Positions 6,886-60,368 of a DNA stretch of 64,000 nucleotides are shown here, one piece after another. A program made the translations under genes and the position numbers. The DNA is from Minisyncoccota bacterium (GTDB lineage: Bacteria; Patescibacteriota; Minisyncoccia; Phycocordibacterales; UBA5272). Within the stretch, counting starts at the first letter, position 1. Every line of letters begins with the position of its first letter. The notes beneath the pieces are model-generated. The model was given only the letters and a program-made list of their open reading frames with translations, did not search any database and was not told the DNA's origin. The stretch covers positions 16,702 through 80,701 of the forward strand of contig JAYWBQ010000028.1 in assembly GCA_043781255.1 (NCBI GenBank), in the 5' to 3' direction.

Positions 6886-7728
6886 TTAGGCTGATGCCAT
6901 CTCGCGTTGCTCGAAGTCAACTTGGTCAACTTGGAACATCGACGAAACGTCGATACCACTCACGGGGACCTTTACGTCATCGTCATCACCAAATTCTGCC
7001 TTATGCTCTTCGTCGACCATTTTCATGGTGATGACGGCATCCATGGGCTGATCAAATGAATCTCGTGTCATTTTCATGAAGTTTTTCTGTACGTTTCGTG
7101 CTTTTGCTTTGGTAATCAACTCTTTCAAGTTGTGCTGCAAAAATGCAAGCATGCCATCCTGAACTTCCCCGATTTTCCCTCGCGTGAAGTTTGCCTTCAC
7201 GTGTTTCTGCAGAAGCCAGGTATGAGGGATGAAAATTCGCTCATGTGCGCCATCCCGGAGGAATGGTTCTTGAATAACCAAGATGTCTTGTGCAGGCTTG
7301 TCCCCATTTTTAGGGAACCAGCGAAGTGTGACAATAAAGTCGTTGGTGACGAACTGGTCATCAGAGTTTCGGCCGAAGACATGGTAGCTACCATGGGTGC
7401 CAATAACCATCTCTTTAAGACGATTTTGCTCCTGTTCAGCAAGAATTTTCTTTGTCTCGGCTTTTGCCTTTGCGGCTAGTGCCTGCTTTTGCTCTTGGTG
7501 AGCTTCTGCACGGTCTTGGTTTCGGTCAAAGTTCGGGATCATACCTTTCACTTCCTTTACCGGCTTGGCCGCTTGTACAGCCGCCTCTTTGGCAGCTTTT
7601 TTGTCAGCGAGAGTCGTTTTCTTTATCTGCTTAGTCATCGAGTACTCCAGTTGATGCCTGTTAGGGCTATAACAATTTAAAAGGACATGACCATGTAAAA
7701 GTACAGGGTCAAGATATATTATACACAA
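6886..7728 (-). CDS. Hypothetical protein with a Lys/Ala-rich N-terminal tail (possible nucleic-acid binding)
   Basis: Likely true start at 7638 (MTKQIKK...), which has a GGAG 8 nt upstream. The tail ADKKAAKEAAVQAAKPVKEVKG is histone-H1-like low complexity. The globular part matches no family I recognise. GC is higher than in neighbouring genes. Confidence 0.5.
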   Translation of the reverse strand: MCIIYLDPVLLHGHVLLNCYSPNRHQLEYSMTKQIKKTTLADKKAAKEAAVQAAKPVKEVKGMIPNFDRNQDRAEAHQEQKQALAAKAKAETKKILAEQEQNRLKEMVIGTHGSYHVFGRNSDDQFVTNDFIVTLRWFPKNGDKPAQDILVIQEPFLRDGAHERIFIPHTWLLQKHVKANFTRGKIGEVQDGMLAFLQHNLKELITKAKARNVQKNFMKMTRDSFDQPMDAVITMKMVDEEHKAEFGDDDDVKVPVSGIDVSSMFQVDQVDFEQREMASA

Positions 7729-23470: not shown

Positions 23471-23507
23471 TTATTTACGAATAATACCCCGTGGCATTAG
23501 CCCAAGG
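23471..23507 (+). repeat. Hairpin-repeat family, degenerate type-A copy
   Basis: TTATTTACGAATAA palindrome + TACCCCGTGGCATTAGCCCAAGG. Confidence 0.4.
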
Positions 23508-23612
23508 ATGTTCATTGAAATAAAAAGACCCCCAGAATACGTAGCCGTTCAAGGATTAATCCCAGTACCACTTAATGTATATCCTTCACATGCTTAGAGC
23601 AAGGACAATTAG

Positions 23613-38720: not shown

Positions 38721-38753
38721 TCTTTCTTATTACTACATATACTGTTTACATAT

Positions 38754-38861
38754 ATGCTTACCTTCACTATCCCCGCACTCATACTCCTAATGATCTTGGC
38801 GTTTCTTGTCGGAGCTCTCATTGGTGGGGTTATTATTTATAGAAAGTCTACGGGAAAATAA
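38754..38861 (+). CDS. Small single-TM peptide (35 aa), copy 1 of a tandem pair; not in the ORF track
   Basis: MLTFTIPALILLMILAFLVGALIGGVIIYRKSTGK. Hydrophobic core with a basic C-terminus. The first 11 codons match copy 2 with mostly synonymous differences. Confidence 0.45.
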   Translation: MLTFTIPALILLMILAFLVGALIGGVIIYRKSTGK

Positions 38862-38873
38862 TTCATCTAAATT

Positions 38874-38975
38874 ATGCTAACATTCACTATTCCAGCCTTT
38901 ATTCTCTTGTTATTTATGTGTGCTTTAGTTGGTGCAACATTTGGAATTTGGGTTGTTCTTATAAAGTGGAGGTAG
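38874..38975 (+). CDS. Small single-TM peptide (33 aa), copy 2 of the tandem pair; not in the ORF track
   Basis: MLTFTIPAFILLLFMCALVGATFGIWVVLIKWR. It starts 13 nt after the stop of copy 1. Confidence 0.45.
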   Translation: MLTFTIPAFILLLFMCALVGATFGIWVVLIKWR

Positions 38976-39079
38976 ATAATTTTTGGTAAAGGTGAAAGGG
39001 TGAGGGGAGAAGTCCCCTATTTAAACTAGGGTTAGTTTTTAAATGTTAATTTAAGAGTTACGAGGGTTAGTATTTCTTT

Positions 39080-39116
39080 TTATTCGCGAATAATACCCTG
39101 TGGCGTCAGCCCAGGG
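39080..39116 (+). repeat. Hairpin-repeat family, type-A copy
   Basis: TTATTCGCGAATAA perfect palindrome + TACC + CCCTG-TGGCGTCAGCC-CAGGG hairpin. Confidence 0.6.
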
Positions 39117-39334
39117 ATGTAGCGAGTTCTGCATCCAGTTCTCCTTCGTTATGATACGATACAGGTATGTCTGCAAAACAGAATTACAAAAGGGGTAATC
39201 ACTGTGTATACCTGTGCGATTATCACATAGTGCTTCCGACCAAATTCAGACACTCATGTATCACAGAAGACCTGTGGTCGTACTTGTATGGGAAACTTCT
39301 GGAGATTACAAAACATTATCCGAATTCGTGAATA

Positions 39335-39362
39335 CTACCTCCATAGCGTCAGTCCAAGGTAG
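39335..39362 (+). repeat. Hairpin-repeat family, degenerate copy
   Basis: CTACCT-CCATAGCGTCAGTCCA-AGGTAG. The loop is related to TGGCGTCAGCC and the outer stem is compensated. Confidence 0.4.
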
Positions 39363-40057
39363 TTCATTGGTCAGTATGGTAAATACGGTACATTGTGGAA
39401 CAAGTTTGCTGTAAAGTTACTATTATTATAAAAATTTAAAAATGCAAAGGTTTTTAAAGTCTTGTAATGGCTAAAATAGCTTACCAGATAACTACGGTGA
39501 AGATGTGGGTTATTTAGGATACTTATGTCGTAAAAGATATATTGTGCGACATTAACTTATAATAACAAAAGCCCCCTCAACCTTATATATACAAAGGATT
39601 TTTCCCTTTGTCTTTTACTATTGATTATTACTAAATTTTTTAACAGCACTTACTGCCCTATCCATCCGTAGGTAACCATCAAGTCATCCTATTTCCTTTG
39701 TTACTATTTAAAAGCAAGTTAAGTCTTGGTTAATGTCATACATAGAAATATACTCTTACCAGATTAAGTCATTTTTACTGTAGTTCGATCTTAGATAGAC
39801 TACTGCTCGCACATAGCATGTCTCGCTTACTCTTTATAGATCTAAGTAAACACTGGATAACTATAAATCCCAAGTTACGATAGGCTCTAAGGTTAATTTT
39901 AGAGGATACTACCTACATCACTAGAATTATATATAAGACTACGATTACTTGGAATATATACCAAATCAGTAAAAAGTCTCTGATGTTACTGTAAAGATTA
40001 ACCATTAGTAAGATAAATTATTCCTACTATTTTTTATTCAATTGTTTTTATCTTTTT

Positions 40058-40093
40058 TAGTCCACACAAATCCTCCGTGGCGTCAGCCCGGAG
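40058..40093 (+). repeat. Hairpin-repeat family, type-B copy
   Basis: TAGTCCACACAAATC + CTCCG-TGGCGTCAGCC-CGGAG. Confidence 0.6.
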
Positions 40094-40235
40094 TTCTTTA
40101 GTTTATAATTATTATTTTATTATTTCTGTGGCTAAGACTACTTTTTCCTTGCTATTTTTTTTGAAAAAATATTTTAAGCTATAGTGAATGCTTTATATGT
40201 CTGCGTTTCCTCACCTTCCATTATAAAAGTAAAAT

Positions 40236-40263
40236 GGGTATGTATCCTTACAATACATACCCA
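40236..40263 (-). terminator. Hairpin terminator downstream of proS
   Basis: GGGTATGTAT-n8-ATACATACCC inverted repeat, followed on the minus strand by a T-rich run. Confidence 0.5.
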
Positions 40264-40331
40264 TTTAAACTATTAGATATAGCAAAATGTTTAGATAGAT
40301 AACTATAGAAAAGTGATACTGTCTTCTATGG

Positions 40332-42731: not shown

Positions 42732-42823
42732 AGAACAGACTGAAGCAGGTACACTCTAGACTTTAGCTTTTTAATTCAAATGTATACAAAAAATGGTATC
42801 TTTGGAAATCAGTTTTTGTACTT

Positions 42824-42860
42824 TAGTCCACACAAATCCTCCGTGGCGTTAGTCCGGGAG
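42824..42860 (+). repeat. Hairpin-repeat family, type-B copy
   Basis: TAGTCCACACAAATC + CTCCG-TGGCGTTAGTC-CGGGAG. Confidence 0.55.
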
Positions 42861-42942
42861 ATGGAGTGAGTTCATGTTTTGTAATCAAAACATGTTGAAT
42901 GGCGAAGCTCTTCAACTAAAGCAATCCAAAGGATTGCGATCT

Positions 42943-42965
42943 AATCCTCTGTGGCGTCAGTCTAG
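42943..42965 (+). repeat. Hairpin-repeat family, degenerate type-B copy
   Basis: AATCCTCTG-TGGCGTCAGTC-TAG. Confidence 0.4.
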
Positions 42966-43008
42966 TATTCTTTAGTTATGGGCTACAGGCTAATTGCTAC
43001 AGTCTGTA

Positions 43009-48681: not shown

Positions 48682-48706
48682 GTTTTAATTTGATATACTT
48701 TAAAGT

Positions 48707-60307: not shown

Positions 60308-60332
60308 TCTACGAGCTGAGTAAATGAACCTC

Positions 60333-60368
60333 CCCGGGCTGACGCCACGGGGTATTATTCGCGAATAA
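60333..60368 (-). repeat. Hairpin-repeat family, type-A copy in inverse orientation
   Basis: The reverse complement reads TTATTCGCGAATAA + TACC + CCCG-TGGCGTCAGCC-CGGGG. Confidence 0.6.

What the first reader, a model, noticed from the sequence alone, without database searches (positions are those of the whole stretch)
39080..39116. Intergenic hairpin family with an invariant 11-nt loop and covarying stems (7 or more copies)
The unit is a 5-bp stem enclosing the loop TGGCGTCAGCC, and it recurs only in intergenic DNA. Coordinates in this entry refer to the clearest exemplar; the other copies are given below.

- **Copies.** 23471-23507 (degenerate), 39080-39116, 39335-39362 (degenerate), 40058-40093, 42824-42860, 42943-42965 (degenerate) and 60333-60368 (inverse orientation).
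- **Covariation.** Stem sequences differ between copies while pairing is kept: CCCTG/CAGGG, CTCCG/CGGAG, CCCCG/CGGGG and CTACCT/AGGTAG. The loop stays constant. This pattern indicates selection on structure or on a loop-specific binding partner.
- **Two flank types.**
  - Type A copies are preceded by the perfect 14-bp palindrome TTATTCGCGAATAA.
  - Type B copies are preceded by TAGTCCACACAAATC.
- **REP-like feature.** The GTGG at the stem-loop junction resembles the GT[AG]G tetranucleotide of REP elements, which are mobilised by RAYT (IS200-like) transposases.

No checklist feature type names this family.
Basis: seen in the sequence. Interest (0 to 1): 0.7.

Follow-up and report, generated by a model that had tools for sequence, protein, structure and literature searches.

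The report
Decayed IS200-type transposon ends
The repeated hairpins are the end structures of a small IS200/IS605-type jumping gene, present here only as broken copies, so this is a well-understood kind of mobile DNA and not a new class of element.

Summary
The repeat family is real. There are five clear copies and two degenerate ones, all intergenic, against about 0.3 loop matches expected by chance.

The "invariant 11-nt loop" is not a loop. It is a bulged T, a 3-bp inner stem (GGC/GCC) and a GTCA tetraloop. The whole hairpin is an 8-bp imperfect palindrome.

It lies between two of the hairpins.

In related MAGs (several are labelled Candidatus Paceibacterota) and in metagenome contigs, intact 565-587-bp elements have this layout:
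- target TTAT or TTAG
- a 12-nt leader
- the left hairpin
- tnpA (147 aa)
- the right hairpin
- an 8-nt tail

The 4 nt 5' of each hairpin covary with the cleavage tetranucleotide exactly as in IS608: AATA/TTAT, AATC/TTAG, AATT/TTAA, AATG/TTAC and GATA/TCAT.

The window holds five relics:
- one internally deleted IS
- one 149-bp MITE
- three 41-nt single-hairpin remnants

It holds no intact transposase. The REP/RAYT reading fails its defining tests, although the Y1-transposase intuition was right.

Verdict: a new member of a known kind, of low to moderate interest.

The parts
39080..39083 (+). TTAT. Left cleavage/target tetranucleotide of the type A element. It is not part of the element.
   Evidence: Predicted from guide AATA by the IS608 rule. 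The same TTAT precedes the 12-nt leader in full-length relatives.
39084..39367 (+). Internally deleted IS200-type element (284 bp). It has a left end, the first 54 codons of tnpA, a decayed right-end hairpin and the tail TAGTTCAT.
   Evidence: blastn aligns window 39085-39297 with positions 3-215 of the 565-bp element in L134 and 39092-39323 with positions 9-244 of the 587-bp element in L125. The tail matches the P0104 right end TAGTTCAT.
39084..39095 (+). 12-nt left-end leader TCGCGAATAATA. Its last 4 nt, AATA (39092-39095), are the guide.
   Evidence: Aligns with the leaders TCCGCAAAAATA, TCCACAAAAATA and TCCCACCCAATA of intact elements.
39096..39116 (+). Left-end hairpin CCCTG-T-GGC-GTCA-GCC-CAGGG.
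   Evidence: CM 42.8 bits. The DNA fold is (((((.(((....)))))))).
39115..39136 (+). Second left-end hairpin GGATG..CATCC, within the conserved block ATGTAGCGAGT.
   Evidence: The block is conserved 3' of every left-end hairpin.
39167..39331 (+). Truncated tnpA: 54 codons, N-terminal third of a Y1 HUH transposase. It lacks both the HUH motif and the catalytic Tyr.
   Evidence: tblastn gives 67% identity to the L036 TnpA, E 1.9e-24, over 39152-39325. Pfam Y1_Tnp gives E 7.8e-4 against profile positions 1-39 of 121.
39335..39359 (+). Decayed right-end hairpin, followed by the tail TAGTTCAT at 39360-39367.
   Evidence: Not found by the CM at E<=10. No family-type fold.
40061..40101 (+). Single-hairpin remnant, TTAG type (41 nt): leader TCCACACAAATC, hairpin 40073-40093 and right-end tail TTCTTTAG. 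The target TTAG lies at 40057-40060.
   Evidence: The first 31 nt are 100% identical to the left end of the intact element in L125. The tail matches its right end. CM 39.6 bits.
42827..42975 (+). 149-bp MITE of the TTAG type. It has a left hairpin at 42839-42860 with an extra G, a remnant of the tnpA 3' end, the hairpin GCAATCC-AAA-GGATTGC at 42921-42937, a decayed right hairpin at 42947-42967 and the tail TTCTTTAG at 42968-42975. The target TTAG lies at 42823-42826.
   Evidence: blastn to L125: positions 1-46 (93%) and 514-587 (84%). 78% identity over 141 nt to the 147-bp MITE of MAG JAYVAE01.
23475..23515 (+). Degenerate single-hairpin remnant, TTAT type: leader TTACGAATAATA, hairpin 23487-23507 with two mispairs and tail ATGTTCAT. 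TTAT lies at 23471-23474.
   Evidence: CM 20.5 bits, E 0.0012. This copy was not used to build the model.
60324..60364 (-). Single-hairpin remnant, TTAT type, on the minus strand: leader TCGCGAATAATA, hairpin 60332-60352 and tail AGGTTCAT. TTAT is the complement of 60365-60368.
   Evidence: CM 43.7 bits.

Best explanation
The hairpins are the subterminal imperfect palindromes of a compact IS200-group insertion sequence of the IS200/IS605 family. The element carries tnpA only and is 565-587 bp when intact.

**Intact layout, on one strand**
- A target tetranucleotide (TTAT or TTAG).
- A 12-nt leader whose last four bases are the guide.
- The left hairpin: 5 bp, a bulged T, 3 bp and a GTNA tetraloop.
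- About 55 nt, then tnpA (147 aa).
- The right hairpin with its own guide.
- An 8-nt tail ending in the right cleavage tetranucleotide.

**Inferred mechanism, by analogy with IS608**
- A TnpA dimer binds the two hairpins on single-stranded DNA.
- Each guide pairs with its cleavage site: c-4 with g2, c-3 with g1, c-1 with g4.
- The catalytic tyrosine cuts.
- The element leaves as a single-stranded circle and reinserts 3' of the target tetranucleotide ("peel and paste").

**State of the window**
Every copy in the window is a relic:
- one IS that has lost two thirds of tnpA
- one 149-bp MITE with a decayed right hairpin
- three 41-nt units that join left leader, one hairpin and right tail

The 41-nt units were most likely made by deletion between the two hairpins. 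No intact transposase lies in the 64 kb, so these copies are probably immobile now.

**Shown:** the architecture, the homology, the covariation and the target specificity.
**Inferred:** the biochemical mechanism and the origin of the single-hairpin units.
For: 1. **Transposase fragment in place.** A tnpA fragment lies between a left-type and a right-type hairpin at 39084-39367.
2. **Intact relatives carry the same ends.**
- Seven independent insertions of P0002 read ..T(T/G)AG|TCCACACAAATC-CTCCG TGGCGTCAGCC CGGGAG..tnpA..AATC-CGCTG TGGCGTAAGCC CAGCG-TTCTTTAG|.
   - P0107 and L032 have AATA-CCCCG TGGCGTCAGCC CGGGG upstream of an intact tnpA.
   - P0104 right ends finish in TAGTTCAT, the 3' flank of the type A copies in the window.
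3. **Transposase identity.**
   - NCBIfam transpos_IS200 scores 121 bits against a cut-off of 55.
   - 967 homologues have E<=1e-10, and the 120 listed all carry PF01797.
   - IS608 TnpA (2a6m) matches at E 2e-14. In the printed alignment to 2ec2, the query DHVHLLIS (the presumed HUH motif) pairs with DHIHLFVN and KRYIANQ (the presumed catalytic-Tyr helix) with KKYIEEQ.
4. **Hairpin covariation.**
   - Across 13 distinct gap-free hairpins, all 104 pair cells are paired.
   - 5 of 8 pairs show changes on both sides.
   - The covariation score is 0.462 against 0.127+/-0.037, and 0 of 500 shuffles reach it.
5. **Guide-cleavage covariation follows the IS608 rule.** The rule comes from PMC5934647: GL AAAG/CL TTAC, GR GAAT/CR TCAA, with A+16:T-3 and A+17:T-4. 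Here the pairs are AATA->TTAT, AATC->TTAG, AATT->TTAA, AATG->TTAC and GATA->TCAT.
6. **Evidence of mobility.**
   - Identical 147-bp MITEs sit at six or more loci in MAG JAYVAE01.
   - P0104 has several copies per contig.
   - The def-fmt spacer is filled in L022 and empty in the window.
7. **Folding.** The three intact window hairpins fold as predicted in DNA.
Against: - No intact element or transposase is in the window. The rest of the source genome could not be searched, so current mobility in this organism is unknown.
- The hairpin alignment used for covariation left out copies with extra bulges and decayed copies. The 100% pairing is therefore partly by selection.
- One left end (L146) has TCAT where its guide AATA predicts TTAT.
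- The third guide base is T here, whereas IS608 has an A that inserts into the protein.
- A simple crossover within the loops of unlike left and right hairpins does not explain the single-hairpin units, because two of them have perfectly paired stems.
- No biochemistry has been done on this family.
Confidence: 0.93

Rival explanations
1. REP/BIME-like repeats are spread by a domesticated REP-associated tyrosine transposase (RAYT).
For: - The units are short GC-rich imperfect palindromes in intergenic DNA.
- A Y1 transposase relative is involved.
- Three copies are single hairpins.
- REPs are known to resemble IS200/IS605 end hairpins (PMC3333891).
Against: - The 4 nt 5' of the hairpin foot are AATA, AATC or GATA, not GT[AG]G (definition in PMC3333891).
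- There are no inverted pairs in the window.
- The relatives' transposases fall far below the REP_Tyr_transpos cut-off (24 vs 80 bits) and well above the IS200 cut-off.
- The hairpins flank multicopy autonomous elements as direct repeats, not inverted ones.
Confidence: 0.03
2. The 41-nt single-hairpin units (left leader + hairpin + right tail) are minimal non-autonomous elements in their own right, still mobilised in trans by TnpA. They would be an intermediate between IS ends and REPs, not deletion scars.
For: - Two of the three have perfectly paired stems and intact loops.
- The unit at 40061-40101 has the guide AATC with a matching TTAG on both sides.
- All three have exactly the same 41-nt architecture.
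Against: - IS608-type TnpA dimers synapse two hairpins (PMC3201880). A single hairpin offers only one.
- The type A units pair the left guide AATA with the right site TCAT, a c-3/g1 mismatch.
- A scan of JGI metagenome contigs for the type B unit with any stem found none.
- No such unit occurs in the other family loci examined.
Confidence: 0.08
3. The hairpins are a structured RNA motif or a set of transcription terminators selected at the RNA level.
For: - The stems are GC-rich and lie in an AT-rich genome.
- All copies are intergenic.
- Some neighbouring hairpins inside the elements are flagged terminator-like.
Against: - There is no Rfam family match in the window apart from 4 tRNAs.
- The terminator scan does not flag the family hairpins themselves, and no T-run follows them.
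- Conservation extends to DNA-level features that have no RNA rationale: target tetranucleotides, leader and tail.
- The same hairpins bracket a transposase gene in relatives.
Confidence: 0.03

Closest known systems
IS608 (Helicobacter pylori), the mechanistic paradigm of IS200/IS605
   Same: - The transposase is a Y1 HUH TnpA, with sequence similarity at E 2e-14 to 2a6m.
- Both ends carry subterminal imperfect palindromes with an extrahelical base, on one strand.
- A guide tetranucleotide 5' of the hairpin foot pairs with a left cleavage site in the 5' flank and a right cleavage site inside the element. The pairing rule is the same.
- There is a second small hairpin 3' of the left palindrome.
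   Different: - There is no tnpB.
- The element is 565-587 bp. IS608 is about 1.8 kb (own knowledge).
- Spacing is tighter: 12 nt instead of 19 at the left end and 8 nt instead of 10 at the right end.
- The third guide base is T, not A.
- The targets are TTAT, TTAG, TTAA or TTAC, varying between subfamilies.
IS200 (Salmonella/Enterobacteriaceae) and other tnpA-only members
   Same: - It is a tnpA-only element of a few hundred bp with end hairpins.
- NCBIfam transpos_IS200 matches end to end.
   Different: - The end sequences are different.
- The host lineage is different: MAGs labelled Candidatus Paceibacterota or simply bacterium.
- It is shorter than the roughly 700-bp IS200 (own knowledge).
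PATEs / IS200-IS605-derived MITEs (Haloquadratum and Halanaerobium; PMC3119063, PMC7290912, PMC10055086)
   Same: - They are short non-coding derivatives that keep both IS ends.
- They are multicopy in some genomes. Compare window 42827-42975 and the 147-bp element in six or more copies in MAG JAYVAE01.
   Different: - This one derives from a tnpA-only element.
- The window also holds even shorter one-hairpin derivatives.
REP/BIME with RAYT (TnpA-REP)
   Same: - They are hairpin repeats recognised by a Y1 HUH protein.
- They are intergenic.
   Different: - There is no 5' GTAG.
- There are no inverted pairs.
- The transposase is of the IS200 type, not the RAYT type.

Membership tests
IS200/IS605 family insertion sequence (IS200 group) | Encodes a Y1 HUH transposase (TnpA) between the ends. 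| tested here: met
   Relatives have a 147-aa TnpA scoring 121 bits on transpos_IS200 against a cut-off of 55, and the 120 listed homologues all carry PF01797. The window itself has only an N-terminal 54-codon fragment.
IS200/IS605 family insertion sequence (IS200 group) | Subterminal imperfect-palindrome hairpins at both ends on the same strand, with no terminal inverted repeats. | tested here: met
   Left and right hairpins are direct repeats flanking tnpA in L115-L146. The 8-bp stem with a bulge is supported by covariation and by DNA folding.
IS200/IS605 family insertion sequence (IS200 group) | A guide tetranucleotide 5' of each hairpin foot matches the cleavage tetranucleotide. The left site lies in the 5' flank and the right site at the 3' tip. 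| tested here: met
   Five guide/site combinations obey c-4:g2, c-3:g1, c-1:g4. The rule is taken from PMC5934647. There is one exception, the L146 left end.
IS200/IS605 family insertion sequence (IS200 group) | Insertion 3' of a specific tetranucleotide. | tested here: met
   Seven independent P0002 insertions follow T(T/G)AG, and six or more P0104 insertions follow TTTAT. The outer flanks are unrelated.
IS200/IS605 family insertion sequence (IS200 group) | Strand-specific single-strand excision and integration by TnpA. | not testable with these tools
   This needs biochemistry or genetics.
MITE/PATE derived from IS200/IS605 | A short non-coding element that retains both IS ends and is multicopy. 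| tested here: met
   Window 42827-42975 aligns to positions 1-46 and 514-587 of the intact IS. A homologous 147-bp element occurs at six or more loci in one MAG. The window copy itself is single and decayed.
REP/BIME (RAYT-associated) | A conserved GT[AG]G tetranucleotide 5' to the foot of the palindrome. | tested here: not met
That position holds AATA, AATC, AATT, AATG or GATA. The definition is from PMC3333891.
REP/BIME (RAYT-associated) | The associated protein is a REP-associated tyrosine transposase. | tested here: not met
   REP_Tyr_transpos scores 19-24 bits against a cut-off of 80.
REP/BIME (RAYT-associated) | High copy number, mostly as inverted pairs. | tested here: inconclusive
   There are seven hairpins in 64 kb and none in an inverted pair. 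The rest of the genome was not available.
Known structured RNA family (Rfam) | A match at the gathering threshold. | tested here: not met
   Only 4 tRNAs were found in the window.

The most novel reading that the evidence does not exclude
The 41-nt single-hairpin units (left leader + one hairpin + right tail, with a cleavage tetranucleotide on each side) are minimal, still mobilisable derivatives of an IS200-type element. If so, they would be a natural intermediate on the path from IS ends to REP-like repeats, in a bacterium with a reduced genome.
Probability: 0.08. Interest if true: 0.55.

Novelty: new member of a known kind. Interest (0 to 1): 0.25.

Why it matters
- **Annotation.** It turns seven unexplained intergenic hairpins into annotated relics of an insertion sequence. 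It also shows that the source genome, probably a Paceibacterota-like bacterium, has hosted at least two subfamilies of a very compact IS200-type element (targets TTAT and TTAG).
- **Mechanism.** The family gives natural sequence evidence for the IS608 guide-cleavage pairing rule. All four base combinations occur at the g4/c-1 position and two at g1/c-3. That could help predict the targets of uncharacterised IS200/IS605 elements.
- **Limits.** It does not open a new mechanism.

Tried and rejected
- **Word-index homologue search with the 54-aa fragment.** No candidates. This was solved by first finding intact relatives through the hairpin DNA.
- **Viral-contig scan.** Four hits, none convincing. 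L001-L003 have unpaired stems; L004 has a paired stem but none of the predicted cleavage sites nearby.
- **Genome scan.**
  - Most of the 110 stretches are chance matches in GC-rich genomes without pairing stems.
  - L068 has a paired stem but lies in a stretch shared by several unrelated high-GC genomes, probably coding sequence.
- **Hit at 6889(-).** No stem, and not found by the CM. Chance.
- **The intact tnpA in L007.** It belongs to a different IS200 member with unrelated end hairpins. It is not the partner of this family.
- **Metagenome scan for the type B single-hairpin unit.** Zero hits.
- **Scan for the type A leader.** One real left end at a contig edge (L151) and one chance hit.
- **Terminator and RNA-motif readings.** Rejected.
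- **The 14-bp palindrome as a separate functional motif.** Rejected. It is TTAT plus the leader, and other family members have non-palindromic leaders.
- **Organism identity.** Inferred only indirectly, from MAG titles and from synteny with L022.

Full report
**Observation**

- The string TGGCGTCAGCC occurs exactly at 39101(+), 40078(+) and 60337-60347(-), and with one mismatch at 42952(+). That is five matches at <=1 mismatch against 0.29 expected, and no shuffle of 100 reaches five. The fifth match, at 6889(-), has no stem and is chance.
- The seven listed copies align with shared flanks.
- A covariance model built later finds five copies at E<=0.0012: 60332-60356(-), 39092-39116(+), 40069-40093(+), 42835-42860(+) and 23483-23507(+). 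It finds 42943-42967 weakly, misses the very decayed 39335 copy, and finds nothing else in the 64 kb.
- All copies lie between ORFs.
- Rfam reports only four tRNAs in the window.

Fifty nucleotides downstream of the exemplar hairpin is a 54-codon ORF at 39167-39331.
- Its product starts MSAKQNYKRGNHCVYLCDYHIVLPTKFR.
- It matches the first 39 positions of Pfam Y1_Tnp at E 7.8e-4, below the gathering score because it is a fragment.
- It ends just before the degenerate hairpin at 39335.
- That hairpin's 3' flank, GTTCATT, is also the 3' flank of the two isolated type A copies.
- Type B behaves the same way. The copy at 42824 carries the 5' flank, the copy at 42943 carries the 3' flank TTCTTTAG, and the isolated copy at 40058 carries both.

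This suggested left and right ends of decayed IS200/IS605 elements.

**Relatives**

- A scan of GTDB representative genomes for AATM-N4-GTGGCGTCAGCCC returned mostly chance hits in GC-rich genomes with unpaired stems.
- Twelve hits had perfect stems and AT-rich flanks. All came from MAGs labelled Candidatus Paceibacterota or simply "bacterium".
- MAG JAYVAE01 carries an identical 147-bp two-hairpin element at six or more loci. It is 78% identical over 141 nt to window 42834-42974.
- L022 from that MAG is syntenic with the window: frr-holB-mreB-priA-def-fmt at 32-85% amino-acid identity.
- L022 has the element between def and fmt, where the window has a 25-bp spacer. That is a filled site against an empty one.
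- L032 shows TTTAT|TCCCACCCAATA-CCCCG TGGCGTCAGCC CGGGG, then 55 nt, then a complete tnpA.
- L036 shows a complete tnpA followed directly by AATC-CGCTG TGGCGTCAGCC CAGCG-TTCTTTAG.
- The window fragment is 67% identical to the N-terminus of the L036 protein (E 1.9e-24).
- No other part of the window resembles TnpA.

**Full-length elements**

The L036 TnpA has 967 homologues at E<=1e-10. The 120 listed all carry PF01797, and most are 147 aa. Contigs encoding nine of them were fetched and their ends were read. Every one has the same plan and a length of 565-587 bp.
- **P0002** (seven independent insertions): ..T(T/G)AG|TCCACACAAATC-CTCCG TGGCGTCAGCC CGGGAG-ATGTAGTGAG..tnpA..AATC-CGCTG TGGCGTAAGCC CAGCG-TTCTTTAG|, with unrelated outer flanks.
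- **P0104** (several copies per contig, contigs up to 1.29 Mb): TTTAT|TCCGCAAAAATA-hairpin..tnpA..GATA-hairpin-TAGTTCAT|. This explains the type A 3' flank.
- **The type A "palindrome"** TTATTCGCGAATAA is TTAT plus the leader TCGCGAATAA(TA). Other members have non-palindromic leaders, so the palindrome is not a conserved feature.
- **Protein classification.**
  - The proteins score 121 bits on NCBIfam transpos_IS200 (cut-off 55) and 24 bits on REP_Tyr_transpos (cut-off 80).
  - They match the solved IS608 and ISDra2 TnpA structures at about 1e-14.
  - In the printed alignment to the best structure hit (2ec2), the query DHVHLLIS, the presumed HUH motif, pairs with DHIHLFVN. KRYIANQ, the presumed catalytic-Tyr helix, pairs with KKYIEEQ.

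**Hairpin structure**

The "11-nt loop" is not a loop.
- DNA folding of the three intact window copies gives (((((.(((....)))))))). That is a 5-bp outer stem, a bulged T, a 3-bp inner stem GGC/GCC and a tetraloop GTCA.
- In relatives the inner stem is CCC/GGG. In P0107 the left end has GGC/GCC and the right end has CCC/GGG within one element.
- On 13 distinct gap-free hairpins, all 104 pair cells are standard pairs and five of eight pairs show changes on both sides.
- The covariation score is 0.462 against 0.127+/-0.037 in shuffles (0 of 500 reach it), and slid registers collapse.
- Caveat: copies with extra bulges and decayed copies were left out of that alignment, so the 100% figure is partly by selection.
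- An imperfect palindrome with an extrahelical T is what IS608 TnpA recognises (PMC3201880).
CTACCT/AGGTAG is not.

**Guide and cleavage sites**

In IS608 the four bases 5' of each hairpin foot pair with the cleavage tetranucleotide:
- GL AAAG pairs with CL TTAC, which lies 19 nt upstream.
- GR GAAT pairs with CR TCAA, which lies 10 nt downstream.
- A+16 pairs with T-3 and A+17 with T-4 (PMC3201880, PMC5934647).

Both IS608 ends fit c-4:g2, c-3:g1, c-1:g4. Applied here, the rule predicts the observed sites:

| Guide | Site | Where seen |
|---|---|---|
| AATA | TTAT | Window type A left end; JAYVAE01 MITE, both ends; left ends of P0104, P0012, P0025, P0095, P0107 |
| AATC | TTAG | Window type B; P0002, both ends; L036; L103 |
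| AATT | TTAA | P0050 left end |
| AATG | TTAC | P0095 right end |
| GATA | TCAT | Right ends of P0104, P0012, P0025, P0050, P0073, P0107 |

- The left site lies 12 nt (once 13) before the hairpin foot. The right site ends 8 nt (once 9) after it.
- The only exception is the L146 left end, which has AATA with TCAT.
- This covariation between positions about 12 nt apart, with all four base combinations at g4/c-1, is the strongest evidence that the family works like IS608.
- The mechanism itself (binding of single-stranded hairpins by a TnpA dimer, tyrosine cleavage, a circular single-strand intermediate, insertion 3' of the target) is inferred from the family paradigm. It was not tested here.

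**What the window holds**

| Coordinates | Strand | Content |
|---|---|---|
| 39084-39367 | + | IS with intact left end, tnpA cut after codon 54, decayed right hairpin, tail TAGTTCAT |
| 42827-42975 | + | 149-bp MITE keeping positions 1-46 and 514-587 of the full element. The left hairpin has two substitutions and the right hairpin is decayed |
| 40061-40101 | + | 41-nt single-hairpin unit |
| 23475-23515 | + | 41-nt single-hairpin unit |
| 60324-60364 | - | 41-nt single-hairpin unit |

- Each single-hairpin unit is made of a left leader, one hairpin and a right tail.
- The type A units combine the left guide AATA with the right site TCAT, which is a mismatch. That fits a deletion scar better than a functional element.
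- The type B unit has AATC with TTAG on both sides and a perfect stem.
- A scan of JGI metagenomes for that unit with any stem found nothing.
- I read these units as deletion products between the two hairpins. The possibility that they are minimal mobile units stays open at low probability.
- Logan contigs from the same organism all break inside the MITE, as expected for a repeat.

**Rivals**

REP/RAYT fails on three counts:
- the position of the tetranucleotide (GTAG must be 5' of the foot; PMC3333891)
- the transposase subfamily
- the arrangement, which is direct repeats around tnpA and not inverted pairs

Terminator or RNA-motif readings fail on two counts:
- there is no T-run after the family hairpins and no Rfam hit
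- conservation extends to DNA-level transposition signals

**Verdict**

The repeat family is real. It is the set of ends of an IS200-group insertion sequence, together with its MITE and scar derivatives, in a probable Paceibacterota-like genome. It is a new member of a known kind. I found no paper in the searched library describing IS200 elements in this lineage; PATE/MITE derivatives of the family are known.

Noticed in passing
window 42921-42937; L020, L036, L055, L103, L125-L131 just after the tnpA stop: A second small hairpin lies between the tnpA stop codon and the right-end guide, and it covaries: GCAATGC/GCATTGC, GCAATCC/GGATTGC and GCAACCC/GGGTTGC. In the window its minus-strand form is followed by TTTAGTTGAA and is flagged terminator-like, about 70 nt downstream of frr(-).
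   Followed up: partly
window 39115-39136 and the 10-12 nt 3' of every left-end hairpin in relatives: A conserved block ATG[TAC]A[GT][CTG]GAGT follows the left hairpin directly. In the window it forms a second hairpin GGATG..CATCC. This recalls the second hairpin 3' of the left palindrome in IS608.
   Followed up: partly
L007 493-918: An intact 141-aa IS200-type tnpA with unrelated end hairpins lies about 340 nt from a MITE copy. The MAG therefore hosts at least two IS200 lineages.
   Followed up: partly
L022 5765-5911 versus window 48682-48706: The window and L022 share frr-holB-mreB-priA-def-fmt. The MITE fills the def-fmt spacer in L022, and its right end appears to supply the def stop codon. 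The window has a 25-bp empty spacer.
   Followed up: partly
L147-L149 (SRR23617225, SRR23617245, SRR23617278): Short-read contigs identical to the window around frr all end inside the MITE, just before its left hairpin. This suggests the assembly breaks at a repeat in the same organism.
   Followed up: no
window 38721-40331: A 1.6-kb gene-free, AT-rich stretch lies between the M23 peptidase gene and proS. It holds two element remnants. The rest of the stretch is unexplained.
   Followed up: no
window, whole: Four of the five insertion loci have the hairpin-bearing (top) strand on the + strand, which has positive GC skew across the window. This fits the reported preference of this IS family for the lagging-strand template (own knowledge; not checked in a paper here). 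The numbers are too small to test.
   Followed up: no
L119 and L124, 2525-2965: A second, different Y1_Tnp gene lies about 600 nt downstream of the P0104 element in two loci.
   Followed up: no
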